From Anaerolineae bacterium (GTDB taxonomy: Bacteria; Chloroflexota; Anaerolineae; B4-G1; DUEL01), in contig JASFBC010000158.1 of the NCBI GenBank assembly GCA_036172315.1, forward strand, positions 2,045 through 66,044: a stretch of 64,000 nucleotides of DNA, read 5' to 3'. The position numbers and the translations under genes are program-made. A model generated the notes under the pieces. It did not search any database. It saw only the letters and a list, made by a program, of their open reading frames with translations, and was not told the DNA's origin. Shown here piece by piece: positions 1 to 11,735 of the stretch. Within the stretch, counting starts at the first letter, position 1, and each line of letters opens with the position of its first letter.

Positions 1-159
1 ACTTTGATTTTGCGAGCGCGGGTGGTCAATGTGGAATACGGTGTTGGGCAACTTCCCCCGGAGAGTTTCTTCCAGCGCATTTCTCTGGAGTTGGGTGTGT
101 GGTTTAAAGAAGAGGGGATTCTTCTGCCGGACGAATTCGCCTTCCCGCCCACCGTATAA
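1..159 (+). CDS. C-terminal end of an unidentified protein (partial, continues upstream of window)
   Basis: Frame +1 is open from nt 1 to TAA 157-159 and reads ..VVNVEYGVGQLPPESFFQRISLELGVWFKEEGILLPDEFAFPPTV*. Composition is protein-like but I recognise no family. It is absent from the ORF track because its start lies outside the window. Confidence 0.3.
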   Translation, partial: TLILRARVVNVEYGVGQLPPESFFQRISLELGVWFKEEGILLPDEFAFPPTV

Positions 160-2435: not shown

Positions 2436-3081
2436 CCAGGAGAAGCCCTCCAGCACCTGCGGGTTCAGGACGTGGCGCGGCCGTTCCCCCACCAACATCC
2501 GCCGCAGGTCCTCCACGACGATGCGACCCTGGTGGGCGGCCACTTCCTCCGTATTCCCCCCATATGCGGCGTGGCGATGACATTGGGGAGTTGCAGCAGC
2601 GGGTGGTCCCAGGCCGGCGGCTCCACGGAGAAGACGTCCACCGCCGCCCCGGCCAGATGTCCGCTCCGGAGCGCTTCGGCCAGTGCTTCTTCGTCCACCA
2701 GCGCGGCACGAGCGGTGTTGACCAGAAACGCTCCTCGCTTCATCCGGGCCAGCGCTTCCCGGCCGATGAGCCCCCGCGTCTGGTCGGTGACCGGCGCGTG
2801 GAGGCTGACGAAGTCACTCTCTGCCAGCAGGTCCTCCAGGGGGAGGAGTTCCGCGTCGGAGCGTGCGGCCTCCTCCGGGCGGACATACGGGTCATAGGCC
2901 AGGAGCCGAACCCCGAAGGGGGCCAATCTCCGGGCAACTTCCCGTCCGACCGCGCCCAGCCCGACCAGCCCCACCGTCTTCCCCCAGAGTTCCTGGCCCA
3001 GGAATGCCTCATACGCCTGCCCCATGCGGCCCATGTCCCCGGCCTCGCCGCCGGGCCGGCGGAGAAACTCGTTGGCGGGGA
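2436..3081 (-). pseudogene. D-isomer-specific 2-hydroxyacid dehydrogenase remnant (N-terminal about 100 aa missing, internal frameshift)
   Basis: Only the NAD-binding domain is present ([20 protein letters not shown] .. LHAPVT .. [16 protein letters not shown] .. AAVDVF..EP .. ATPHMGG). The C-terminal tail (..[29 protein letters not shown]) continues in another frame after a C6/G6 homopolymer at 2556-2561. There is no catalytic-domain N-terminus and no in-frame stop before the next gene. Confidence 0.7.
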
Positions 3082-3336
3082 AAGGAACTCCATCATCGCT
3101 TGTCTGATGACCGGGTGATTGCGCCCCAGGTTGAAGACACTGTACCCGGAGAGCAAGTCCAGATATCGGTTGCCCTCCGTATCCCACAGGTACGCACCCT
3201 CACCGCGAATATAGGGCTTATCAAAGCCAATAATCTGGAGGACGCGCGCCATGGAAGGATTAATGTACTTCATGTGGAGGTCGTACTGATCACCCCGCCG
3301 TTGCTCAATGAGGCGGGCCAGCGAGAAGGAGATCAT
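3082..3336 (-). pseudogene. Class III (PLP) aminotransferase, N-terminal about 85-codon fragment only
   Basis: [85 protein letters not shown] is a typical class III aminotransferase N-terminus. A good RBS (AGGAGG-N5-ATG) sits at 3336. Similarity stops abruptly near 3082, where the dehydrogenase remnant begins in another frame. Confidence 0.65.
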
Positions 3337-3353
3337 CGTTTCCTCCTTTGTTC

Positions 3354-4109
3354 TCACAGGATTTCTAGTGGTTGACGTTGACAACGCACGGTGGCCCGGA
3401 AGCGGTCTCCCCGATGGACCGTGCGCGTGAAAATCAAAGGGATTCCCTGGTCCGAGTACCCGATGCGGGTGCTGAGCACAATAGGAGTGCCCTCTGGGAT
3501 GCCCAGTTCGGCCGCTTCGTAGGGGCCAGCGGTGGAAAGTTCTATCGTATCCTCAGCGCAGGCCGGGACCAGGGAAAACACTTGGGCCATCACCTGGTAA
3601 AGGCTTCGGTCGGTCAGGTCCAGTTCCAGGAGAGTGGGGAAAAGGCGATGGGGGAGAAAAGAGGTTTCCAGAGCCATCCGCTGGTTATCGGCATACCGGA
3701 GGCGGACGATCCGAATAACGGTCTCCCCCTCCGGAAGTTGCAGGGCTTCTGCTACTTGCGGAGGAGCAGGAAGGAGTTCCTGACTGCGAACGGTTGCTCC
3801 GGCCCGCATACCGAGCTGGTCTATCAGGGTGGTATAACTCATCGGGATGAAATTCTCCGGCAGGGTGACTTTGGGGGAGGCGACGAAGGTGCCCTTTCCC
3901 TTGCGGCGGACGACCAGCCCCTCATGGGCCAGTTGGGAAAGGGCCATTCGGGCCGTCATTCGGGAGACGCCGCACTGGGCACATATCTGCGCCTCCGACG
4001 GGAGAGGGTCACCGGGTTTCAAGTGGCCGCTGAGAATCTGCTGGCGCAACTGCTCCCGAATCTGGTGGTAGATGGGGAAAGGGCTATCGGGATTTACCTT
4101 CAGGTTCAT
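3354..4109 (-). CDS. GntR-family transcriptional regulator, HutC subfamily (wHTH + UTRA)
   Basis: N-terminus is [65 protein letters not shown]. The C-terminal about 150 aa has a UTRA-like pattern. Confidence 0.9.
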
Positions 4110-4127
4110 CTCGCCCTCCGGATAAAT

Positions 4128-4135
4128 GTATAGAC
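4128..4135. promoter_or_regulatory. Candidate HutC-type operator core GTATAGAC
   Basis: Matches the HutC-subfamily core GT-N-TA-N-AC exactly. It lies 19 nt upstream of the GntR start, in the divergent GntR/VOC intergenic region. Confidence 0.35.
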
Positions 4136-4255
4136 ATCATACCATATATTGGGTGCGGCGTCAAGGGCCTGACCTGATTTCGGACGTAAGTGGGGCCAAG
4201 GAAGTCCTCACCCCTCCGCTGGGGTGGGATGAGGATACCCCCAGGACATCCAGCC

Positions 4256-4284
4256 TTGACAAACCCCGTATCCGGGCATACAAT
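4256..4284 (+). promoter_or_regulatory. Sigma-70-type promoter for the VOC gene
   Basis: TTGACA (4256-4261), a 17-nt spacer, then TACAAT (4279-4284), 20 nt before ATG 4304. Confidence 0.55.
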
Positions 4285-4303
4285 TGAATATAGGGGGTGA
4301 CAG

Positions 4304-4909
4304 ATGTTCCTGGAAGAGTTGCTTCGGTCGCCGGACTTCGGAGTTACTGTTGGGAATCTGGCCCGCCCCTTCCGGGAACGATGGGGATTGCCCGAGGTTC
4401 ACCAGTTAGGGCTGGTGGTGCCGGACGTGGAAAACGCGGCCGATGCGCTGACAAGGCGGGGCATCGGCCCGTTTTTCATCGCTGTCGGTGCCCCCCGGCT
4501 CTGGCAGGAGCGTGGCCAGGAGCGACGGGTGCGGGGGAAAATGGCCCTGGCCCGCTATCGGGGCGTGGAACTGGAACTGCTGGAGCCGCTGGAAGGCTCC
4601 GACTTTTATACCAGGAGCGTGGACCCCGAGGGGCGCCCCGTTCTGCACCACCTGGGCTTCCAGGTCGCCGAGGTGGACGGCTGGGCGGACCGACTGGCGG
4701 AGGCCGGCTACCCCCTCTGGGTGCGGGGGCGGCTGGGCCTGGGCCCTCTGCGAACCGACTTCGCCTATATGGACACCGTGGGGGATGCCGGGGTAATAGT
4801 GGAATTCATCCGCTGGCAGATTTTCGGCATCCGCTTCGTTCCTCCGGGCCCCGTCCTGAGGGCCATTGGCGGCCTGGAGCGACGGCTGGGATTCCGGCTG
4901 AGAGCGTAG
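4304..4909 (+). CDS. VOC (glyoxalase/bleomycin-resistance/dioxygenase) family protein
   Basis: 201-aa ORF with a paired beta-alpha-beta-beta-beta pattern (HQLGLVVPDVENA.., HHLGFQVAEVD..). Confidence 0.65.
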   Translation: MFLEELLRSPDFGVTVGNLARPFRERWGLPEVHQLGLVVPDVENAADALTRRGIGPFFIAVGAPRLWQERGQERRVRGKMALARYRGVELELLEPLEGSDFYTRSVDPEGRPVLHHLGFQVAEVDGWADRLAEAGYPLWVRGRLGLGPLRTDFAYMDTVGDAGVIVEFIRWQIFGIRFVPPGPVLRAIGGLERRLGFRLRA

Positions 4910-4948
4910 GGCACGAAACGGAATATGTACCGCGAAACCGTTCATCCC

Positions 4949-5011
4949 GACGGAGGCAGGCCCTCCATTGGCCAGAGGCCCAGGGAGGCGGACTTTCCGT
5001 CAGCGCTGAAT
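4949..5011 (+). repeat. R1 family, 3' module only
   Basis: GACGGAGGCAGGCCCTCC..AGGCCCAGGGAGGCGGACTTTCCGTCAGCGCTGAAT matches the last about 60 nt of R1. It ends 11 nt before the J-protein ATG. Confidence 0.75.
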
Positions 5012-5022
5012 AATTACCCGCG

Positions 5023-5985
5023 ATGGATATGGAATACAAAGACTACTACAAAATCTTAGGCGTTGACCGCAACGCCAGCCAGGACGAAATCAAGCGAGCA
5101 TACCGAAAACTGGCCCGGCAGTACCACCCGGATATGAATCCGGGGGATAAGACCGCCGAGGAGCGCTTCAAGGAGATCAACGAGGCCTACGAGGTTCTCT
5201 CCGACCTGGAGAAGCGCCGCCGCTACGACCAGTTCGGTGCAGAGTGGAGCCGCTGGCAGGCGCGCGGCGGCCCCGGCGGCTTTGAGGACTTCGCCCGCCA
5301 ATGGTTCGGACAGGCTGGGCCGCAGGTCCAGTATGTGGACCTGGACGAACTCTTCAGGCAGGTGGGCGGTCTGGGGGACCTCTTTGAATTTCTCTTCGGC
5401 ACCCCGCGCGCCCGGCCGCGCGCCGGTACCCGCCGGGCCTCCCCAAAGGGGCAGGACGTGGAGATGCCGGTAGAGATCACCCTGGAGGAGGCCTTTCACG
5501 GCACCACCCGGCAGGTGGAGCGGGCCGATGGCCGCATCGTCACGGTCAAAATCCCGCCCGGGGCCCACACCGGCTCCCGCCTCCGCTTCGCCGGCCTGGG
5601 CCAGCCGGGCCTCCTGGGCGGCCCCCCGGGCGACCTCTATTTGAAGGTGACCGTCCAACCCCATCCTGTCTTCCGGATGGAGGGAAGCGACCTCTGGCGG
5701 GACCTGCCGGTGGACCTCTACACCGCCGTCCTGGGCGGCGAAGTGCCGGTGGAGACGCTGGACGGAACAGTCATGCTGAAAATCCCGCCCGGCACCAGCA
5801 GCGGGGCGAAATTCCGCCTGCGCGGGAAAGGGATGCCTCGCCCCGGCAACGCCGAACGGCGGGGCGACCTCTACGTCGTCATCCAGGTTCAGGTCCCGCA
5901 GCGGCTGAGCGCGCGGGAGCGGGAACTCTTTGAGGAACTGGCCCGTCTGCGCCGGAGCGCGCGCTCCGGTGATGGTCACCCCTGA
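5023..5985 (+). CDS. J-domain co-chaperone, CbpA type (J domain + DnaJ C-terminal domains, no zinc-finger domain)
   Basis: [31 protein letters not shown] is the HPD motif. A G/F-like linker and two DnaJ_C-like repeats follow. There is no CxxCxGxG repeat. Confidence 0.9.
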
Positions 5986-6073
5986 TTGAACCTTTCCCGG
6001 CCTGGGACTTCGGGCCGTTCCGCCCGCAGACCCTTTACCTTGCATCCTGCCATCCAGACCGATAGGTGAAAAC

Positions 6074-7264
6074 ATGCGCCCTGCGACTTGTGATCTCCGC
6101 CTCCGGTTGGGAGCGGGCCTCCTGCTCCTGGCCACCTTAGCCTGCGCGTTTCCTCTCCCGACACCTCCACCCCCATCCGCGACGACGGCACCCGGCAACA
6201 GGCCGGTGCAGATGGTCGTCGCCACGCCGACCCCGTTGCCGGACTCTCTGATCGCCGAAGCGACCGCTGAAGACCTCCTGCTGGTCAACCTCTACGCGCG
6301 GGTCAATCCCGGCGTCGTCAACATTGACGTCGCGGCGGGAACCGGAGACGAGGCCAGTATCTTCGGCAGCGGTTCCGGATTTCTTATTGACACTGAAGGG
6401 CATATTGTCACCAACAACCATGTCGTGGAAGGGGCCGATACCATCTGGGTCACCTTCAGCGACGGGGGCCTGCGGGAGGCGAGGGTGCTGGGCACCGACC
6501 CCTTTTCCGACCTGGCCGTCCTGAAGGTGGAGGACCTCCCGCCCGGCGCGGTACCGCTGGAACTGGGAGATTCGGATACCCTTCAAGTGGGACAGCGGGT
6601 GATTGCCATCGGCAACCCCTTCGGCCTCCAGGGGACGATGACGGTGGGGGTGGTCAGCGCGCTGGGGCGGGTGCTGCCCACCGTCACCACGGCGACCGGC
6701 GGCTCCTTCTCCAACCCCGAAATCATCCAGACCGATGCTCCCATCAACCCCGGCAACTCCGGTGGCCCTCTCCTGGATTCCCAGGGGCGAGTGGTGGGGG
6801 TCAATACCGCCATCCGCACCACCACCGGGGGAAACATAGGCGTCGGTTTCGCCGTGCCGGTGAACACGGTCAAGCGCATCGTACCCCGCCTCATCTCGGA
6901 GGGAACGTACCATTATCCTTACCTGGGGATCACCGCCGATAACCGCTTCACCCTGGCGCAACTGGCCCACGAGTTGGACCTCCCGGTCACCCGGGGAGTC
7001 CTCATCTCTGCGGTGGAGCCGGGGGGACCGGCGGACCGGGCCGGTCTGCGCGGGGGGACCCGCACCGCACGGGTATTGGGAACAACGGTCCAGGTTGGCG
7101 GCGACATCATCATCGCCATTGACGGTCACCCGATAGAGGACTTCAACGACCTCATCGCCTATCTGGTACGGGAGACCGAAGTAGGGCAGGAGGTGACAGT
7201 GACCATCCTGCGGGACGGGAAGCAGATGGATGTCTCCGTCCGCCTGGGGGAGCGCCCGCGATAG
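6074..7264 (+). CDS. HtrA/DegP-family serine protease with C-terminal PDZ domain, exported
   Basis: Hydrophobic signal ending LLLLATLAC. Catalytic motifs TNNHVV, D(L)AVLKV and GNSGGPL are present, plus a PDZ-like segment (GVLISAVEPGGPADRAGLR). Confidence 0.9.
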   Translation: MRPATCDLRLRLGAGLLLLATLACAFPLPTPPPPSATTAPGNRPVQMVVATPTPLPDSLIAEATAEDLLLVNLYARVNPGVVNIDVAAGTGDEASIFGSGSGFLIDTEGHIVTNNHVVEGADTIWVTFSDGGLREARVLGTDPFSDLAVLKVEDLPPGAVPLELGDSDTLQVGQRVIAIGNPFGLQGTMTVGVVSALGRVLPTVTTATGGSFSNPEIIQTDAPINPGNSGGPLLDSQGRVVGVNTAIRTTTGGNIGVGFAVPVNTVKRIVPRLISEGTYHYPYLGITADNRFTLAQLAHELDLPVTRGVLISAVEPGGPADRAGLRGGTRTARVLGTTVQVGGDIIIAIDGHPIEDFNDLIAYLVRETEVGQEVTVTILRDGKQMDVSVRLGERPR

Positions 7265-7314
7265 GTCAGAGAATACATAATTAACCGATTCTCCCGATCC
7301 TTCTGGAGGAACCG

Positions 7315-8424
7315 ATGATAGACAAAACCGAACTGCGAAATCTGGCCCAGTTCCAGGCCGAAACGCCCATCCTGAGCGTGTATCTGGACGTGGACCCGAC
7401 CCGGCATACCAGTGAGGAGTATCTGCTTTCGCTGCGACATATGCTGAAGGAGGCGGAGAGCCAGGCGGCGCCGGAGGACATCCAGGCCGTACAGCGGTAC
7501 TTTGAGCATGAATACGACTGGTCAGGGCGGGGAGTGGCTATCTTCTCCTGCGCGGCAGCGGATTTCTGGCGGGTCTACATTTTGCCGCTACCCGTGGCCT
7601 CCGGGGTAACGGTGGCCCGCAGGCCGTATATCTCCCCTCTGGCGGCCTTGCTGGATACCTATGAGCGTTATGGGGTAGCGGTGGTGAACCGGGAGGGAGT
7701 CCGGGTGTTGCTGTTCCATCTGGGCGAGCCCATTCATGAAGAGGTTTTTGAAGGGGAGGAGGTCAAGAAACTCAAGCGGGGGCGGGGCTCTTCCGGGGGC
7801 GCTGAGCGCCGGGGTGGCGCCCCCTCCGGCAGCCGTCATATGGAAGAAGTGGCGATGCGCAACCTGCGCCAGGCCGCGCGGGTGGTGGAGCAGTTCTGGC
7901 GCCAGCACACCCCCCAGCGGCTCATCCTGGCGGGGGCTGAACCTACCGTCGCCCAATTCCGGGAGTTGTTACCCAAAGCGTTGCAGGAATTGGTGGTCGG
8001 CACAATGAGCGGGAGTTCCACCGACAGCGAGCGCCTCCTGCGGGAGCGGTCCCTCCAGGTTCTCCAGCGGGTGGAGAAAGAGCGAGAGGCGGCTATGGTG
8101 GAGGCCGTGGTGACGGCAGCCGCGAAGGGGCGGGAAGGCGCCCTGGGGCTGGACGATACTCTCAGCGCTGCCCAGGAGGGCCGCATTCGCACCCTGGTCG
8201 TCCTGCGGGACTTCCACGCCCCGGGGTATCGCTGCACTTCCTGCGGTTATCTGGCAACGCAGAATCCCAGCGTCTGCCCCTTCTGCGGTGGCGTTTTCGC
8301 CGAAATCCCCGACGCCGCCGAGGCGGTGATCACCAAAGTGGTGGAGGATGGGGGGGAGATAGAGGTGGTGGACCACCATCCGCTGCTGGAGCAGGCTGGC
8401 ATCGGAGCGCTGCTGCGGTATTAG
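7315..8424 (+). CDS. Bacterial archaeo-eukaryotic release factor-like protein (baeRF1 / eRF1-Pelota-VLRF1 superfamily) with C-terminal zinc ribbon
   Basis: N-terminus is ..ETPILSVYLDVDPTRHTSEEYLLSLRHML.., typical of bacterial eRF1-like proteins. It has a three-block architecture, a Gly-rich central loop (RGRGSSGGAERRGGAPSGSRH) and CTSC-x10-CPFC at 8233-8286. Confidence 0.6.
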   Translation: MIDKTELRNLAQFQAETPILSVYLDVDPTRHTSEEYLLSLRHMLKEAESQAAPEDIQAVQRYFEHEYDWSGRGVAIFSCAAADFWRVYILPLPVASGVTVARRPYISPLAALLDTYERYGVAVVNREGVRVLLFHLGEPIHEEVFEGEEVKKLKRGRGSSGGAERRGGAPSGSRHMEEVAMRNLRQAARVVEQFWRQHTPQRLILAGAEPTVAQFRELLPKALQELVVGTMSGSSTDSERLLRERSLQVLQRVEKEREAAMVEAVVTAAAKGREGALGLDDTLSAAQEGRIRTLVVLRDFHAPGYRCTSCGYLATQNPSVCPFCGGVFAEIPDAAEAVITKVVEDGGEIEVVDHHPLLEQAGIGALLRY

Positions 8425-8450
8425 CGAGCGGTGACCGTTTCTGACATCCA

Positions 8451-8487
8451 CCGGAGGCACAGATTTTCATCTGTGCCTCCGGTTTTT
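8451..8487. terminator. Rho-independent terminator between convergent genes
   Basis: CCGGAGGCACAGA-ttttca-TCTGTGCCTCCGG (13-bp perfect stem) followed by TTTTT. Confidence 0.85.
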
Positions 8488-8530
8488 GAGGGGGTGAAAT
8501 CCGATTCGCGCCGCAGCGCCGCGATGGCCA

Positions 8531-9286
8531 TTATGTAGATTTATCGCCCTCCAGGGTCTTGCGCCAGCCTAGGCGAGCCAGGAAGGCCCGGTCCTCCTCG
8601 GTCAGAGGGGCCCGCTCCAGCAGGTCCGGACGGCGCTCCAGGGTGCGCCGCAGTGCCTGCTCCCGCCGCCAGCGGGCAATGGCCGCATGGTTGCCCGAAA
8701 GGAGGACCTCCGGCACCGCCCACCCTCGGAAGACCGCCGGTCGGGTATAATGGGGATACTCCAGCAGTCCCCAGGCGTGGGAATCCTCAAAAACAGCACC
8801 GGGGTCCCCCAGAACCCCCGGCAGGAGGCGGGTGACGGCGTCTATGATGACCATCGCTGCCAGTTCTCCGCCGCTGAGAACGTAATCCCCGATGGAAATT
8901 TCGTCGGTCGCCAGGTGCTCTCGCACCCGTTCGTCCACTCCTTCGTAGCGACCACAGATCAGCGCTAACCGGGGGTGACGGGAGAGTTCCCTTGCTACCT
9001 CGTGGGTCAGCAGCCGCCCCTGAGGGGATAGGAGGATTATGGGGACCCCTTTTTCATCCCCCAACACCGCCTCCACGGCGGCGAAAATGGGCTCCGGTTT
9101 CATCACCATCCCCCCGCCACCCCCATAAGGGGCATCGTCGGTGATGCGGTGGCGGCCGGCAGCGTAGTCCCGGATGTTGTGAAGGTGAACAGAAATCAGC
9201 CCGCGCTCCTGCGCCCGCTTAATGATGCTCTCCTGTAAGGGGCCAGTGAACATCTCTGGGAAAAGGGTGAACACATCAAACCGCAT
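8531..9286 (-). CDS. trmD: tRNA (guanine37-N1)-methyltransferase
   Basis: [24 protein letters not shown]..; ..[19 protein letters not shown]..; ..[24 protein letters not shown]. Confidence 0.95.
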
Positions 9287-11735
9287 CGTCCTCCGCTACC
9301 ACAGGTAGCACTGAGGGAAGGAGTCCTCGCAATTCGCTGGGGATCAGGACAATGCGCTGGTCCGCTACCGTCCCATCGCTGAGAAAGCCGTGCATCCGGA
9401 GTCGGCCCATCGTCGTCTCCGGTTTGTGGTAATACCAGTGCTGGTTCTCTTCCACGTCGCTCCCATAACGGGCAGTGAATTCCTCCCACGGGAGGATACC
9501 TCCGGCATCCAGGACGTCCTGCAAGGCCTGCCGCTCTTCTTCAAAGAGGTGAGAAACGGCTCTTCTCAAAGTGAACGGGTCGGTCAGCGCTTCCACCAAT
9601 TGCTGTATCAGTAACTCTTTCCGCAGATTTGCGTAGCGTAGGGAATGGACCTGGGCCATAGCCACCAGGGATTCCCGGGGCAACCGCTCCAGGCACTCCT
9701 TCAGAGAGGCATCGGGCCGGATAGGGCGAGTGCGCTTCCGCTCTTGACGCTGGCGGGAGTGCTCCCGGATTATTTGCCAATAAGAACCCGGGGTGCGCGC
9801 TTCTATCGTCAACTCCAGTTCCAGAAAGCGCAGGTCTCCCGCATCCCATCTCGATCCGACATGGGTATAAAAGCGAGCCATGGCCAGGTCCCCTTCCTCC
9901 AGGCTGACCAGTGCCAGCGCGTGGAGATACTCCATAAACTCCCATGGCCTGAACTCCTGTCGGTCGCTCAGGGCTTCTAGTTGCCGACGAGCCTCCGGGA
10001 GGTCGCCGCGATGCAGCGCCAGTCGGGCCAGCCAGGCGCGGGCGCATGCATGCCGGGGGTCCAATGCCACTGCCTTTTGAAGATACTCGCTATATTTTGC
10101 CCCATCGTCCAGGTGGACAATGGCCGACCAGATGAGATGGTCCGGGTGATCAGGGGCAAGAGAGAGCGCCTGTTTTGCCCGTTCCTGGGCACGCGGGATT
10201 TCGCCTGCCCTCAGCGCATCCATGCATTCCTGGACCACTGCCAGCACTTTTGGGGGATAAGAAGGCTCCTCCGGCTGCACCACAGTCCAGCGGGGGACCT
10301 TCAACCAACGCCACTCCTGCCGAATCTCGTCCCAGACCTCCACCGGCTGCTCCGGGTCTATCCCCCCAGCATCGGCCAGCATTTGCAGGACAGTCATCCG
10401 CTCTTCAAATCTTTCTTTCTGACTGAAGGCAAAGCGGCGAAGTTCTTCCAGGGCTTCCGGAGTGCCAAGGAGGGCGAGCGCCTCCGCCAGGAAATAACGG
10501 GCAGCGGCCTCCCGGAACATTTGGAGCATCTGCTGGAGGAGAACGGGATATCGGGCCACTAAAGCCCTCAATCGTTTCTGGAAGACCTTTCGTTCTATCT
10601 GGTGAGCCGTCCAGGATAGCAGGAGGTCCTGAAGTTCGCGGTTCGTATGGTAGGGAGTGAACCAAGAAAACTGAAAGGTAGGATACCGATCGGCGATGCC
10701 GGGACCGGGGGCTTTCCGGCTGGCCGCTGTAAGGAAGGGCTCCAAGTATATCTCAGGCACTCCCTGGACAATGGCTTGCTCCCAAAGTCGTTGGGCTGTC
10801 CAAAAATGGCCCAGATTGGCCGCCGCCGAACCCAGCACGACCAGGATGATTTCCTTATCTATCTCATGGATCAGGTTGTAGTGGCGCCGGTACAGGCGGT
10901 ATATCCCTTCGTCATCGTTCAGGTGTCCCAACGCTCTGATGGCCAATTCCAGGTCAGAGGTGAAACGGTAAGAATGCTCCCGTAAAGGTCGGGCAACCTC
11001 CTCTGCCGCCTCCCGATTGCCCAGGGCAATGTAGGCCCGGACCATGAATTCTCTCGCCAGAACCATATCAGGATGCTCGGCCAGGAGGGACGCTCCCGCC
11101 TCCACCGCTTCGCGGAACCGACCGGCCATTGCCAGAATCTCTGCCTCTATTCCCCGGAGGATGGGCCACTGGGGGAGAATGGAGGCCGCCCGACGGAGGT
11201 GACGGAGAGCCGCTGTGAAGTCCCCCGTCTGGGACATCCGGTAGCCCAACTCCACCTGATATTCTGCTTCGTCCACTTTGCCGGGGGAAACCTTCAACAT
11301 ATGCGCAAGGGAGGAGAGGCTCTTCTCCAGTTTGTTCAGCATCCCCCGTGTCTCCCGGACTAATTCGTCGGGAAGAATATCCGGATACTCCATTACCTTT
11401 CGCAGGGCACGTCGGGCATGCGCGGGCATGTCCAACTCGTCGTAAATCATTCCTAAAAAATAGTAGACGAGGAGATTATCGGGTTCGCGCCGCTGCGCTT
11501 CCTCAAAGGTGGAGAGGGCCTCATCCATATTACCTGTGCTGGCCAGCAAAAAGCCCCGAAGTATCAGGAGTTCCGAGCGATGCTGCAGATGAATGGGGGC
11601 CTCGTCCAGGACCCGAAGGGCTTCTTCCGGGTTCCCCTCTTTCTGCAAAGCCTCAGCCCGAGAGAGAATCTCCTCCAGACCGGGTCCCCGGGAAGGAGGG
11701 GGCTGAGGGTGCCGGCGTTTCGGTTTTTTGATCAT
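9276..11735 (-). CDS. Large TPR-repeat protein (819 aa)
   Basis: The whole length is helical-repeat sequence with TPR-like A/L/Y periodicity. Its 3' end overlaps the trmD start by 11 nt. Confidence 0.7.

What the first reader, a model, noticed from the sequence alone, without database searches (positions are those of the whole stretch)
5023..8487. CbpA-type J-protein, HtrA protease and a bacterial eRF1-like (baeRF1) protein with a zinc ribbon in one apparent operon
Seen in the sequence:
- Three same-strand genes are separated by 88-nt and 50-nt gaps, and the only strong terminator (8451-8487) follows the third.
- The third gene (369 aa) starts ..ETPILSVYLDVDPTRHTSEEYLL.. and has the three-block layout of eRF1/Pelota-like proteins.
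- Its central loop is Gly-rich (RGRGSSGGAERRGGAPSGSRH, about 7774-7840). It sits where eRF1 carries GGQ but has no Gln.
- A CTSC-x10-CPFC zinc ribbon (8233-8286) is inserted in the C-terminal domain.

Established knowledge: bacterial aeRF1 homologues (the baeRF1/VLRF1 families of Burroughs and Aravind) are computationally defined and essentially uncharacterised. Their eukaryotic and archaeal relatives (eRF1, Pelota/Dom34, Vms1/ANKZF1) act on stalled or terminating ribosomes.

Inference: the operon may couple a ribosome-rescue or nascent-chain-release factor to a J-domain co-chaperone and a protease. That would be a bacterial counterpart of ribosome-associated quality control that is independent of tmRNA, ArfA or RqcH.

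Caveat: the HtrA has an export signal (LLLLATLAC). Direct cooperation with a cytosolic factor is therefore doubtful, and co-transcription may only reflect a shared stress regulon.
Basis: partly seen in the sequence, partly recalled or inferred. Interest (0 to 1): 0.7.

Follow-up and report, generated by a model that had tools for sequence, protein, structure and literature searches.

The report
Balon-like ribosome factor in chaperone operon
The third gene encodes a relative of Balon, a recently characterised eRF1-shaped protein that parks bacterial ribosomes during stress, and in Anaerolineae it is almost always encoded right after a DnaJ-type co-chaperone (often with HtrA and ClpB), so it is an interesting but not unprecedented stress operon rather than a new nascent-chain release pathway.

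Summary
Three same-strand genes lie at 5023-5985, 6074-7264 and 7315-8424, with 88- and 50-nt gaps and a -29.7 kcal/mol terminator at 8451-8487. They encode a class-B J-protein, an HtrA with a lipoprotein signal, and a 369-aa eRF1-fold protein.

That protein passes the Pfam baeRF_family10 threshold, and so does Msmeg1130, a Balon with a ribosome-bound cryo-EM structure. Balon structures are its best fold matches (TM 0.64-0.72, against about 0.5 for eRF1). "Essentially uncharacterised" is therefore outdated.

It lacks NIKS and GGQ. At the GGQ-homologous site it has an invariant G-R-G followed by a 9-residue Gly/Arg insertion. Its four-Cys ribbon is the ancestral aeRF1 ribbon, at the site where Msmeg1130 carries a Cys-free insert.

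Gene order J, HtrA, baeRF10 holds in 58 of 66 Anaerolineae species loci, while the flanking genes vary. A sister clade shows J, baeRF10, ClpB without HtrA. HtrA is exported and dispensable for the linkage, so the conserved partner is the J-protein.

Best reading (0.58): a Balon-type A-site hibernation factor co-expressed with proteostasis genes. The release/RQC idea is not supported, though not excluded (about 0.12). I rate it a new member of a known kind, of moderate interest.

The parts
4256..4284 (+). Near-consensus sigma-70-type promoter (TTGACA-17-TACAAT), the probable start of the transcription unit in this clade
   Evidence: 11 of 12 matches. About 30 related loci carry cTTGACAg-17-TAGAAT 10-60 nt upstream of the J-protein gene. 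In the window the equivalent site lies before the glyoxalase-family gene, and no promoter-like site was seen in 4910-5022.
4304..4909 (+). Glyoxalase/VOC-family gene (201 aa), a probable clade-specific first gene of the unit
   Evidence: Pfam Glyoxalase_4, E 3e-12. It lies directly upstream of the J-protein gene only in the closest relatives (baeRF at least 84% identical; L001-L006, L030, L049).
5023..5985 (+). Class-B (CbpA-like) J-protein: J domain with HPD, G/F-rich linker, DnaJ_C, no zinc-finger domain
   Evidence: Pfam DnaJ (E 7e-31) and DnaJ_C (E 2e-48), with no DnaJ_CXXCXGXG hit. NCBIfam CbpA and DnaJ equivalog cut-offs are not reached. It is conserved upstream of baeRF10 in both clades.
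6074..7264 (+). HtrA/DegP-family serine protease with one PDZ domain and an N-terminal lipoprotein signal (lipobox ATLAC, Cys24) followed by a Pro/Thr-rich linker
   Evidence: Pfam Trypsin_2 (E 1e-36) and PDZ_2. NCBIfam Do-family match, E 6.5e-90, below cut-off. Lipobox regex match in the window and in 55 of 71 orthologues.
7315..8424 (+). baeRF family 10 / Balon-like three-domain aeRF1-fold protein (369 aa)
   Evidence: Pfam PF18854, 92.1 bits. Full-length sub-threshold matches to the three NCBIfam ribosome-hibernation-factor families. PDB sequence search: Msmeg1130 Balon, E 2.6e-11. Foldseek: Balon structures first, TM 0.64-0.72.
7315..7623 (+). N-terminal domain (about residues 1-103), without NIKS or YxCxxxF
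   Evidence: AlphaFold secondary structure; motif search finds 0 of 41.
7624..8127 (+). Middle (RNase-H-like, peptidyl-transferase-centre-facing) domain and the long connecting helix (about residues 104-271)
   Evidence: The Pfam family-10 match covers residues 104-247; model elements E118-E231 and H239-271.
7774..7839 (+). Gly/Arg-rich loop at the GGQ position. G156-R157-G158 is homologous to GG(Q), followed by the 9-residue insertion GGAERRGGA. There is no Gln, and the loop is disordered in the model.
   Evidence: Invariant K154, G156, R157, G158, R165, G167, G168. HHalign against the sister clade. The sister-clade profile aligns to the aRF1/eRF1 GGQ. pLDDT is below 50 for residues 154-170.
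8128..8421 (+). C-terminal (Pelota/eRF1_3-like) domain, ending in GALLRY as in Rv2629 and aRF1
   Evidence: Alignments.
8233..8286 (+). Four-Cys zinc ribbon (CTSC-x10-CPFC) at the ancestral aeRF1 ribbon site, where Msmeg1130 Balon has a Cys-free insert
   Evidence: Invariant C307, C310, C321, C324. Present in most of 132 distant representatives. Aligns to the aRF1 4af1 Cys insert and to Msmeg1130 VRYVGTVGADGSLYADGEIAPHSHAATK. Weak RUBY_RBDX hit.
8451..8487 (+). Intrinsic terminator: 13-bp GC-rich stem, 6-nt loop, T5
   Evidence: Sequence; -29.7 kcal/mol and detected by my own scan. 25 of 75 related loci have a terminator-like hairpin within 150 nt after the gene.

Best explanation
The 369-aa protein is a Balon-type member of the bacterial aeRF1 clade (Pfam baeRF_family10). 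It most likely enters the ribosomal A site without reading mRNA, because it has no NIKS-type motifs. It would put its middle-domain Gly/Arg-rich loop next to the peptidyl-transferase centre without hydrolysing peptidyl-tRNA. It would use its C-terminal domain, here with an intact zinc ribbon, at the factor-binding side where Balon contacts EF-Tu. The expected effect is to pause and protect ribosomes during proteotoxic stress.

It is co-transcribed with a class-B J-protein, which recruits DnaK, and in many relatives it is followed directly by ClpB. In this lineage an exported HtrA lipoprotein is also part of the unit. One promoter would thus deliver translation arrest and ribosome preservation, cytosolic refolding and disaggregation, and envelope protein quality control. 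In the window's clade the unit probably starts at the promoter at 4256-4284 and includes a glyoxalase-family gene.

Shown here: the family and fold assignment, the loss of the release-factor motifs, and the conservation of the operon.
Inferred: ribosome binding, a hibernation-type outcome, stress induction, and any EF-Tu contact.
For: - Pfam baeRF_family10: 92.1 bits against a threshold of 27.1. The cryo-EM-characterised Balon Msmeg1130 belongs to the same Pfam family at 124.7 bits.
- NCBIfam: full-length alignments to the MSMEG_1130, Rv2629 and AOC03_06830 hibernation-factor models, E 1e-27 to 6e-19.
- Foldseek ranks ribosome-bound Balon structures first: 8v9l E 1.5e-24, TM 0.72; 8rdw TM 0.69; 8v9k TM 0.69. 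These are ahead of aRF1/eRF1 (TM 0.44-0.51) and Pelota (0.25-0.41).
- No NIKS, YxCxxxF or GGQ in the window protein. NIKS and YxCxxxF are absent from all 41 family members, and a GGQ string occurs somewhere in only 2 of them.
- The GGQ-homologous tripeptide is an invariant G-R-G.
- Context: J-HtrA-baeRF10 is contiguous in 58 of 66 Anaerolineae species loci although the flanks differ. The J to HtrA gap has a median of 3 nt. No promoter-like site occurs in 71 HtrA-baeRF spacers. ClpB lies directly downstream in 28 of 69 loci and L25/Ctc upstream in 20 of 55.
- Sister clade: J directly upstream in 33 of 53 loci and ClpB directly downstream in 36 of 49.
- Published: Balon binds the A site of vacant and translating ribosomes, keeps the catalytic centre inert, and its genes typically lie in stress operons that include Hsp20, DnaK and DnaJ (PMC10901736).
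Against: - Scores against the three NCBIfam hibernation-factor equivalogs are far below cut-off (96.9 against 480, 84.3 against 320, 68.8 against 330). This is a separate subfamily, 15-21% identical to the solved Balons.
- The Balon-specific features (HP motif, lasso loop, bL27 trap, EF-Tu hairpin) could not be identified here.
- The loop is very strongly conserved and of fixed length. Burroughs and Aravind associate that pattern with catalytically active families, and they singled out family 10 as possibly active (PMC6514570).
- No HPF/RaiA neighbour, the commonest Balon partner, is present in the window (the query was recalled from memory, so this is a weak test).
- No heat-shock operator (CIRCE or HAIR) was found, so stress induction is unproven.
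- There are no experimental data for any zinc-ribbon-bearing family-10 protein.
Confidence: 0.58

Rival explanations
1. Active rescue or release factor (the first reader's idea, and the sense of NCBI's name "Vms1/Ankzf1 family peptidyl-tRNA hydrolase"). The conserved Gly/Arg loop reaches the peptidyl-transferase centre of heat-stalled ribosomes and hydrolyses or cleaves peptidyl-tRNA. The co-encoded J-protein, with DnaK and ClpB, then takes over the released nascent chain. This would be a tmRNA- and RqcH-independent quality-control route.
For: - The loop is invariant and of fixed length in the clade.
- The sister clade keeps an almost eRF1-like HKxGG(W)SxxR[YF]xR frame.
- Deeper long-loop members have GGGSQ or GGSSQ, which resembles the VLRF1 GGxSQ motif (PMC6514570).
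- PMC6514570 flags family 10 as potentially catalytic.
- The tight J-protein and ClpB linkage fits the handling of a protein substrate.
- From my own knowledge: in bacterial RF1/RF2 the Gln side chain is not strictly required for hydrolysis.
Against: - The window clade has no Gln in the loop: none in the window protein and none in all but 2 of the 60 loci with the GRGSS...RRGG loop, both of which have a Gln at residue 148-149, outside the Gly motifs.
- The second Gly of the homologous GG is an invariant Arg. Both glycines are essential in eRF1 (Frolova 1999, cited in PMC10901736).
- The Gln position varies (Q, S, A, H, T) among long-loop members.
- The family-10 member Msmeg1130 is a non-releasing hibernation factor.
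- No acVLRF1 or VLRF1 Pfam hit for the window protein.
- HtrA is exported and cannot act on cytosolic nascent chains.
Confidence: 0.12
2. Pelota-like, non-catalytic ribosome-splitting or recycling factor. The protein binds empty-A-site or heat-stalled ribosomes, possibly with EF-Tu or another GTPase through the ribbon-bearing C domain, and promotes subunit dissociation so that chaperones can act. It would not be a storage factor.
For: - It has the same superfamily fold as Pelota/Dom34.
- It lacks catalytic and stop-codon motifs, as Dom34 does.
- PMC6514570 proposes a Dom34-like non-catalytic role for most baeRF families.
- The basic residues around the loop are conserved.
Against: - Fold similarity to Pelota is the weakest of the three groups (TM 0.25-0.41).
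- No ABCE1-like or Hbs1-like partner is encoded nearby.
- The closest characterised relatives stabilise 70S ribosomes rather than split them (PMC10901736).
Confidence: 0.15
3. The linkage is only a shared stress regulon or an inherited gene block. The protein acts on the ribosome, or elsewhere, independently of the J-protein, HtrA and ClpB, and gene order persists by descent within one bacterial class.
For: - All 160 loci with a taxon label come from Chloroflexota, mostly Anaerolineae.
- HtrA is extracytoplasmic and can be lost from the cluster (L011, L076, and the sister clade).
- A Thermoflexus paralogue, the P0124 cluster, has none of these neighbours.
Against: The flanking genes turn over while J-baeRF10 persists from 90% down to about 37% protein identity and across two loop types. 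The J to HtrA start/stop overlaps indicate a true operon. That pattern is usually taken as selection for co-expression. Note that this rival overlaps with the best explanation, which does not require physical contact.
Confidence: 0.1

Closest known systems
Balon-type ribosome hibernation factors (P. urativorans Balon; M. smegmatis Msmeg1130; M. tuberculosis Rv2629; PMC10901736)
   Same: - Three-domain aeRF1 fold; these are the best structural matches (TM 0.64-0.72).
- Same Pfam family as Msmeg1130.
- No NIKS and no GGQ.
- Encoded in stress or chaperone operons, with DnaJ named among Balon neighbours.
- C-terminal GALLRY-type end, as in Rv2629.
   Different: - Only 15-21% identical, and far below the NCBIfam equivalog cut-offs.
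- Keeps an intact four-Cys zinc ribbon where Msmeg1130 has a Cys-free insert.
- Has an invariant Gly/Arg loop (GRGSSGG..RRGGAP), whereas Msmeg1130 has lost the Gly-Gly entirely.
- The neighbours are J-protein, HtrA and ClpB rather than RaiA.
- The HP motif, lasso loop and bL27 trap were not identifiable.
Class-1 release factors aRF1/eRF1
   Same: - Fold and domain order (Foldseek E 1e-19 to 1e-13).
- Zinc ribbon at the same C-domain site as in archaeal aRF1 (PMC6514570).
- The sister clade keeps the HKxGGxSxxR[FY]xR loop frame.
   Different: - No NIKS, YxCxxxF or GTS stop-codon motifs, and a shorter N domain.
- GGQ is replaced by G-R-G plus a 9-residue insertion.
- Bacteria terminate with RF1 and RF2, so this is not the primary release factor.
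Vms1/ANKZF1 and bacterial VLRF1 peptidyl-tRNA hydrolases/nucleases (the source of NCBI's current product name)
   Same: The aeRF1 superfamily middle domain. Deeper long-loop relatives carry GGGSQ, which is like the VLRF1 GGxSQ motif. A link to protein quality control is suggested by the operon.
   Different: The window protein has no GxxQ or GGxSQ in the loop and no VLRF1 or acVLRF1 Pfam match. It keeps N and C domains that VLRF1 proteins replace. Vms1 acts on 60S-bound chains within a defined RQC pathway, which has no counterpart encoded here.
Pelota/Dom34
   Same: A non-catalytic aeRF1-superfamily A-site factor without a Gln.
   Different: The weakest fold match (TM 0.25-0.41). No partner GTPase or ABCE1 is encoded nearby. 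Loop A was not examined.
DnaK-DnaJ/CbpA-ClpB bichaperone heat-shock genes and HtrA (DegP) envelope protease
   Same: - The J-protein has a J domain with HPD, a G/F region and DnaJ_C, and lacks the zinc finger, as CbpA does.
- The HtrA has a Trypsin_2 domain with GNSGG, a PDZ domain and an export signal.
- ClpB follows in many relatives.
   Different: No cbpM partner, no dnaK or grpE in the cluster, and no CIRCE or HAIR operator. An aeRF1-like gene embedded between these genes is not part of the classical operons.

Membership tests
Pfam PF18854 baeRF_family10 | Whole-protein score above the curated gathering threshold | tested here: met
   92.1 bits against 27.1, residues 104-247 on profile positions 1-139 of 143.
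aeRF1 superfamily (eRF1/aRF1/Pelota fold) | Three-domain N-M-C architecture with structural similarity to solved members | tested here: met
   AlphaFold model pLDDT 85.8, pTM 0.74. Foldseek E 1e-24 to 1e-7 to Balon, aRF1, eRF1 and Pelota.
Class-1 release factor (aRF1/eRF1) | Stop-codon recognition motifs NIKS and YxCxxxF in the N domain | tested here: not met
   Absent from the window protein and from all 41 family members.
Class-1 release factor (aRF1/eRF1) | GGQ catalytic tripeptide in the M-domain loop | tested here: not met
   No GGQ in the window protein. The homologous tripeptide is an invariant G156-R157-G158.
Balon-type ribosome hibernation factors | aeRF1-like fold lacking NIKS and GGQ, with full-length homology to Balon, Msmeg1130 and Rv2629 | tested here: met
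   NCBIfam alignments cover residues 2-369 (E 1.2e-27), 14-369 and 45-369. PDB profile search: Msmeg1130 E 2.6e-11, Rv2629 E 6e-7. Foldseek top five hits are Balon structures.
Balon-type ribosome hibernation factors | Score above an NCBIfam equivalog cut-off (MSMEG_1130, Rv2629 or AOC03_06830 family) | tested here: not met
   96.9 against 480, 84.3 against 320, 68.8 against 330 bits. It is a distinct subfamily.
Balon-type ribosome hibernation factors | HP motif in the N domain contacting A1492/A1913; lasso loop and bL27 trap in the M domain | not testable with these tools
   The motifs are defined on cryo-EM figures and are not given at sequence level in the held text. The only HP dipeptide in the protein is at 355-356, in the C domain.
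Balon-type ribosome hibernation factors | Beta-hairpin insertion in the C domain that binds EF-Tu | tested here: inconclusive
   The site of Msmeg1130's Cys-free C-domain insert is occupied here by a four-Cys zinc ribbon of similar length. PMC6514570 regards the two-strand insert as a degenerate ribbon. Whether that insert is the EF-Tu-binding hairpin, and whether the ribbon binds EF-Tu, was not tested.
Balon-type ribosome hibernation factors | Binds the ribosomal A site and inhibits translation without releasing the nascent chain | not testable with these tools
   This needs biochemistry or cryo-EM.
Balon-type ribosome hibernation factors | Gene located in a stress-response operon | tested here: met
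   J-protein and HtrA upstream in 58 of 66 loci; ClpB downstream in 28 of 69 loci, and in 36 of 49 sister-clade loci.
Vms1/ANKZF1-VLRF1 peptidyl-tRNA hydrolases | GxxQ or GGxSQ catalytic loop and a VLRF1-type profile match | tested here: not met
   GG.SQ is absent in all 41 family members, and the window protein's loop contains no Gln. No VLRF1 or acVLRF1 hit at E up to 0.01.
Class-B (CbpA-type) J-protein | J domain with HPD, G/F region, DnaJ_C, and no Cys-rich zinc-finger domain | tested here: met
   Pfam DnaJ and DnaJ_C only. YHPD is present in the translation.
Class-B (CbpA-type) J-protein | NCBIfam CbpA equivalog (PRK10266) cut-off | tested here: not met
   204.7 bits against 403. The CbpA-like label describes the architecture only.
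HtrA/DegP serine proteases | Trypsin-like domain with the catalytic Ser motif, at least one PDZ domain, and an export signal | tested here: met
   Trypsin_2 E 1e-36, PDZ_2 E 2.5e-13. GNSGGP is in the translation. Lipobox ATLAC at residues 20-24.

The most novel reading that the evidence does not exclude
The zinc-ribbon-bearing family-10 proteins of Anaerolineae may not be passive hibernation factors. They could be active components of a heat-stress ribosome quality-control route. In that reading the invariant Gly/Arg loop acts at the peptidyl-transferase centre, either releasing or holding the nascent chain. The co-encoded class-B J-protein would recruit DnaK, and ClpB in many relatives, to the ribosome-bound chain. 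That would be a bacterial counterpart of ribosome-associated quality control independent of tmRNA, ArfA/B and RqcH. The near-universal J-baeRF10 adjacency across two loop types is the observation that keeps this open.
Probability: 0.12. Interest if true: 0.8.

Novelty: new member of a known kind. Interest (0 to 1): 0.4.

Why it matters
Balon-type factors were recognised only in 2024, and all three that have been studied lack the zinc ribbon and have a degenerate catalytic loop. This locus represents a large, well conserved Chloroflexota branch of the same Pfam family. That branch keeps the ancestral ribbon and an invariant Gly/Arg loop, and it is tied to a DnaJ-type co-chaperone, and often to ClpB, more tightly than to any hibernation partner. 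If ribosome parking is co-expressed with the disaggregation machinery, it would link translation arrest directly to protein refolding during heat stress. It would also give a testable case, in the culturable Thermoflexus hugenholtzii, for what the conserved loop and ribbon do. Finally, it shows that the current public product name, "Vms1/Ankzf1 family peptidyl-tRNA hydrolase", rests on no tested feature and is contradicted here by the missing Gln and Gly.

Tried and rejected
- RNA thermometer in the 50-nt HtrA-baeRF spacer. In the window, GGAGG can pair with UUCUCC. Across 55 loci, however, the probability that the Shine-Dalgarno is paired is 0.45 against 0.47 in shuffles (Wilcoxon p = 0.34), and the mean z is -0.27. 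Rejected.
- Known heat-shock operators. No CIRCE (up to 4 mismatches) or HAIR (up to 3 mismatches) upstream of the J gene in 64 loci or in 72 spacers.
- Internal promoter for the baeRF gene. None of 71 spacers has a TTGAC[AT]-16..18-TAnnnT site, and only 2 of 71 have a terminator-like site.
- Rfam scan of 3500-9500. Only a sub-threshold fluoride-riboswitch hit, antisense inside trmD.
- Second paralogue or HPF in the window. None found by tblastn. The HPF query was recalled from memory, so this is a weak test.
- Supplementary files of the Balon paper, searched for Chloroflexi, Anaerolinea, DnaJ and HtrA. Nothing is held as text.
- Sequence-level definition of the HP motif. Not available.
- The first metagenome scan with the broad sister-clade alignment failed for lack of a conserved stretch. 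It was repeated with a tighter alignment.
- The consensus terminator scanner missed the real terminator. I verified it by folding and by my own scan.

Full report
**Observation.**
The window carries three + strand ORFs at 5023-5985 (320 aa), 6074-7264 (396 aa) and 7315-8424 (369 aa). They are separated by 88 and 50 nt. A 13-bp GC-rich hairpin with a T5 tail lies at 8451-8487. It folds at -29.7 kcal/mol, and none of the upstream spacers contains a comparable hairpin plus T-run. The consensus scanner missed this site. It reported only weak 5-7-bp sites, at the frequency expected from shuffles.

The coordinates given for the Gly-rich loop (R155-H175, nt 7777-7839) and for the CTSC-x10-CPFC ribbon (C307-C324, nt 8233-8286) are correct.

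**Identities of the first two genes.**
- Gene 1 has a J domain (with HPD) and DnaJ_C but no zinc-finger domain, so it is a class-B, CbpA-like J-protein. It does not reach any NCBIfam equivalog cut-off.
- Gene 2 is an HtrA/DegP-type protease (Trypsin_2 plus PDZ, GNSGG). It has a basic and then hydrophobic N-terminus ending in a lipobox (ATLAC), followed by a Pro/Thr-rich linker. The same signal is found in 55 of 71 orthologues.

**Identity of gene 3.**
- It passes the Pfam baeRF_family10 threshold (92.1 bits against 27.1).
- It gives full-length but far sub-threshold alignments to the three NCBIfam "ribosome hibernation factor" families named after MSMEG_1130, Rv2629 and AOC03_06830, the last being Psychrobacter Balon.
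- The only significant PDB sequence matches are Msmeg1130 and Rv2629 Balon, followed by eRF1.
- An AlphaFold model built from 41 homologues (pLDDT 85.8, pTM 0.74; only the loop 154-170 is disordered) finds the ribosome-bound Balon structures first. These are 8v9l (E 1.5e-24, TM 0.72), 8rdw (TM 0.69) and 8v9k (TM 0.69). aRF1/eRF1 follow at TM 0.44-0.51 and Pelota/Dom34 at 0.25-0.41.
- I rebuilt the two mycobacterial sequences from the printed alignments. Msmeg1130 is itself a family-10 member (124.7 bits) and Rv2629 is a family-2 member.

The window protein thus shares its Pfam family with a factor shown by cryo-EM to sit in the A site and shown to inhibit translation in vitro (PMC10901736).

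**Anatomy compared with release factors and Balon.**
- *Stop-codon and catalytic motifs.* The window protein has no NIKS, YxCxxxF or GGQ. NIKS and YxCxxxF are absent from all 41 family members, and a GGQ string occurs in only 2 of them.
- *Loop types.* A survey of 132 representatives at 50% clustering shows two types. Most members have a short HKQGGW[SA]..[YF]QRH loop. A profile of these aligns position for position with aRF1 and eRF1 (QRKGGQSAQRFARL, HKMGGQSQRRYERI, HGRGGQSALRFARL), so GGQ has become GGW there.
- *The window's loop.* The window's clade has a longer loop, K-x-G-R-G-S-S-G-G-x-x-R-R-G-G-A-P. HHalign places G156-R157-G158 opposite GG(Q/W) and treats GGAERRGGA as a 9-residue insertion. 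At the homologous site the second glycine is an invariant arginine and the glutamine is a glycine.
- *Variation among long-loop members.* Deeper long-loop members have GGGSQ or GGSSQ at this place. The position is otherwise Q, S, A, H or T. The RRGG element is kept in 63 of 70 loci. Msmeg1130 has lost the Gly-Gly altogether.
- *Zinc ribbon.* All four cysteines are invariant, and most distant relatives keep them. The ribbon aligns with the Cys insert of archaeal aRF1 and with the Cys-free segment VRYVGTVGADGSLYADGEIAPHSHAATK of Msmeg1130. This matches Burroughs and Aravind's statement that classical aeRF1 has a ribbon in the Pelota domain and that many baeRF families carry a two-strand remnant at the same site (PMC6514570). 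The ribbon is therefore ancestral, not a new insertion. By inference it sits where Balon's EF-Tu-binding hairpin lies.

**Neighbourhood in the window's clade.**
A scan of one genome per species returned 80 loci. All are Chloroflexota, mostly Anaerolineae (including Thermoflexales and Anaerolineales). Their baeRF proteins are 45-90% identical to the window's and all have the long loop.
- Of 66 loci with at least 2.6 kb upstream, 58 have J-protein, HtrA and baeRF contiguous on one strand. At least two of the remaining eight are ORF-calling misses, and two have the J-protein directly adjacent without HtrA.
- The J to HtrA gap has a median of 3 nt, with many 1-4-nt overlaps. The HtrA to baeRF gap has a median of 86 nt.
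- None of 71 HtrA-baeRF spacers has a sigma-70-like promoter and only 2 have a terminator-like hairpin. By contrast, 25 of 75 loci have a terminator-like hairpin within 150 nt after the baeRF gene.
- Flanking genes are not conserved, with two exceptions. ClpB lies on the same strand downstream in 28 of 69 loci, and ribosomal protein L25/Ctc lies upstream in 20 of 55. The window has neither within its 64 kb.
- About 30 loci share a near-consensus promoter, cTTGACAg-17-TAGAAT, 10-60 nt before the J gene. In the window the equivalent site (TTGACA-17-TACAAT, 4256-4284) precedes a glyoxalase-family gene (4304-4909). That gene is present only in the closest relatives, so the unit here is probably four genes long.

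**Neighbourhood in the sister clade.**
For the short-loop sister clade, also from Anaerolineae according to source names, I fetched 80 metagenome loci.
- Ten loci form a Thermoflexus paralogue group with none of these neighbours.
- Among the other 70, the J-protein is directly upstream in 33 of 53 loci with enough upstream DNA. A further 5 have J-HtrA and 8 have HtrA.
- ClpB is directly downstream in 36 of 49, with 7 more within 2.7 kb.

The deep, recurrent link is therefore J-protein with baeRF10, often followed by ClpB. HtrA is a lineage-specific passenger.

**Interpretation.**
The best-supported reading is a Balon-type A-site factor that is produced together with proteostasis genes. It would halt and protect ribosomes while DnaK with the J-protein and ClpB deal with aggregates and HtrA deals with the envelope. 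The Balon paper already states that Balon genes lie in stress operons that include Hsp20, DnaK and DnaJ. ClpB is not mentioned there, and I found no paper on family 10 specifically.

The catalytic Gln and one essential Gly are missing. The closest characterised relative does not release peptides. The protease is outside the cell and is dispensable for the linkage.

The model is not excluded, however. The loop is invariant and of fixed length, a pattern Burroughs and Aravind associate with active families. They named family 10 as a candidate hydrolase. NCBI labels these proteins "Vms1/Ankzf1 family peptidyl-tRNA hydrolase". The J-protein adjacency would also fit the handling of a nascent chain. 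A Pelota-like splitting role is a further possibility.

**What failed.**
- An RNA-thermometer idea for the spacer.
- Searches for CIRCE and HAIR operators.
- An Rfam scan.
- Searches for a second paralogue or an HPF gene in the window.
- The Balon-specific HP motif, lasso loop and bL27 trap could not be tested, because they are not defined at sequence level in the text I could read.

**Verdict.**
This is a real, conserved operon. The third gene is a new subfamily-level member of a known kind: a baeRF family 10, Balon-type factor. It has two features not yet studied experimentally, an intact ancestral zinc ribbon and an invariant Gly/Arg loop. It also has a tighter link to a J-protein and ClpB than has been described. 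Interest is moderate (0.4). The more novel rescue reading has a probability of about 0.12.

Noticed in passing
proteins P0165, P0168, P0169 (distant family-10 representatives; not in the window): An anti-sigma-factor zinc finger (zf-HC2, PF13490) is fused to the N-terminus of a full-length baeRF_family10 protein in three separate 50%-identity clusters. This may couple a ribosome-binding module to sigma-factor control.
   Followed up: partly
L081-L090 and L030 (Thermoflexus and relatives): Thermoflexus-like genomes appear to hold two family-10 paralogues. The long-loop form sits in the J-HtrA operon (L030, 90% identical to the window protein). A short-loop KQGGW form (P0124 cluster, 47% identical) has no J-protein, HtrA or ClpB neighbours. 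No second copy lies in this 64-kb window.
   Followed up: partly
window 2465-3384 (- strand): An Aminotran_3 N-terminal fragment (ORF 2740-3384, matching only profile positions 13-54 of 403) overlaps, in another frame, a 2-hydroxyacid dehydrogenase NAD-binding ORF (2465-3187) that lacks its N-terminal catalytic domain. It looks like a gene remnant, a frameshift or an assembly join.
   Followed up: partly
window 8531-11735 (- strand): trmD (8531-9286) overlaps by 11 nt the end of an 819-aa TPR/HEAT-repeat protein gene (9276-11735). This is not the usual rpsP-rimM-trmD-rplS arrangement.
   Followed up: no
window 8792-8851 (+ strand): A sub-threshold Rfam fluoride-riboswitch match (22.7 bits against a gathering score of 34, E 0.0055) lies antisense inside the trmD coding region. 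It is probably a chance match.
   Followed up: no
L019-L063 (about 30 loci), 10-60 nt upstream of the J-protein gene: A well conserved near-consensus promoter, cTTGACAg-N17-TAGAAT, with a conserved TTA..GGTA stretch in the spacer. It is more conserved than the surrounding DNA. Whether the spacer conservation marks an operator was not examined.
   Followed up: partly
L019-L063 (20 of 55 loci), upstream of the J-protein promoter: A ribosomal protein L25/Ctc (general stress protein) gene lies on the same strand 260-540 nt upstream of the J-protein gene in most of these loci. It is another translation and stress gene in the neighbourhood, and it is absent from the window.
   Followed up: partly
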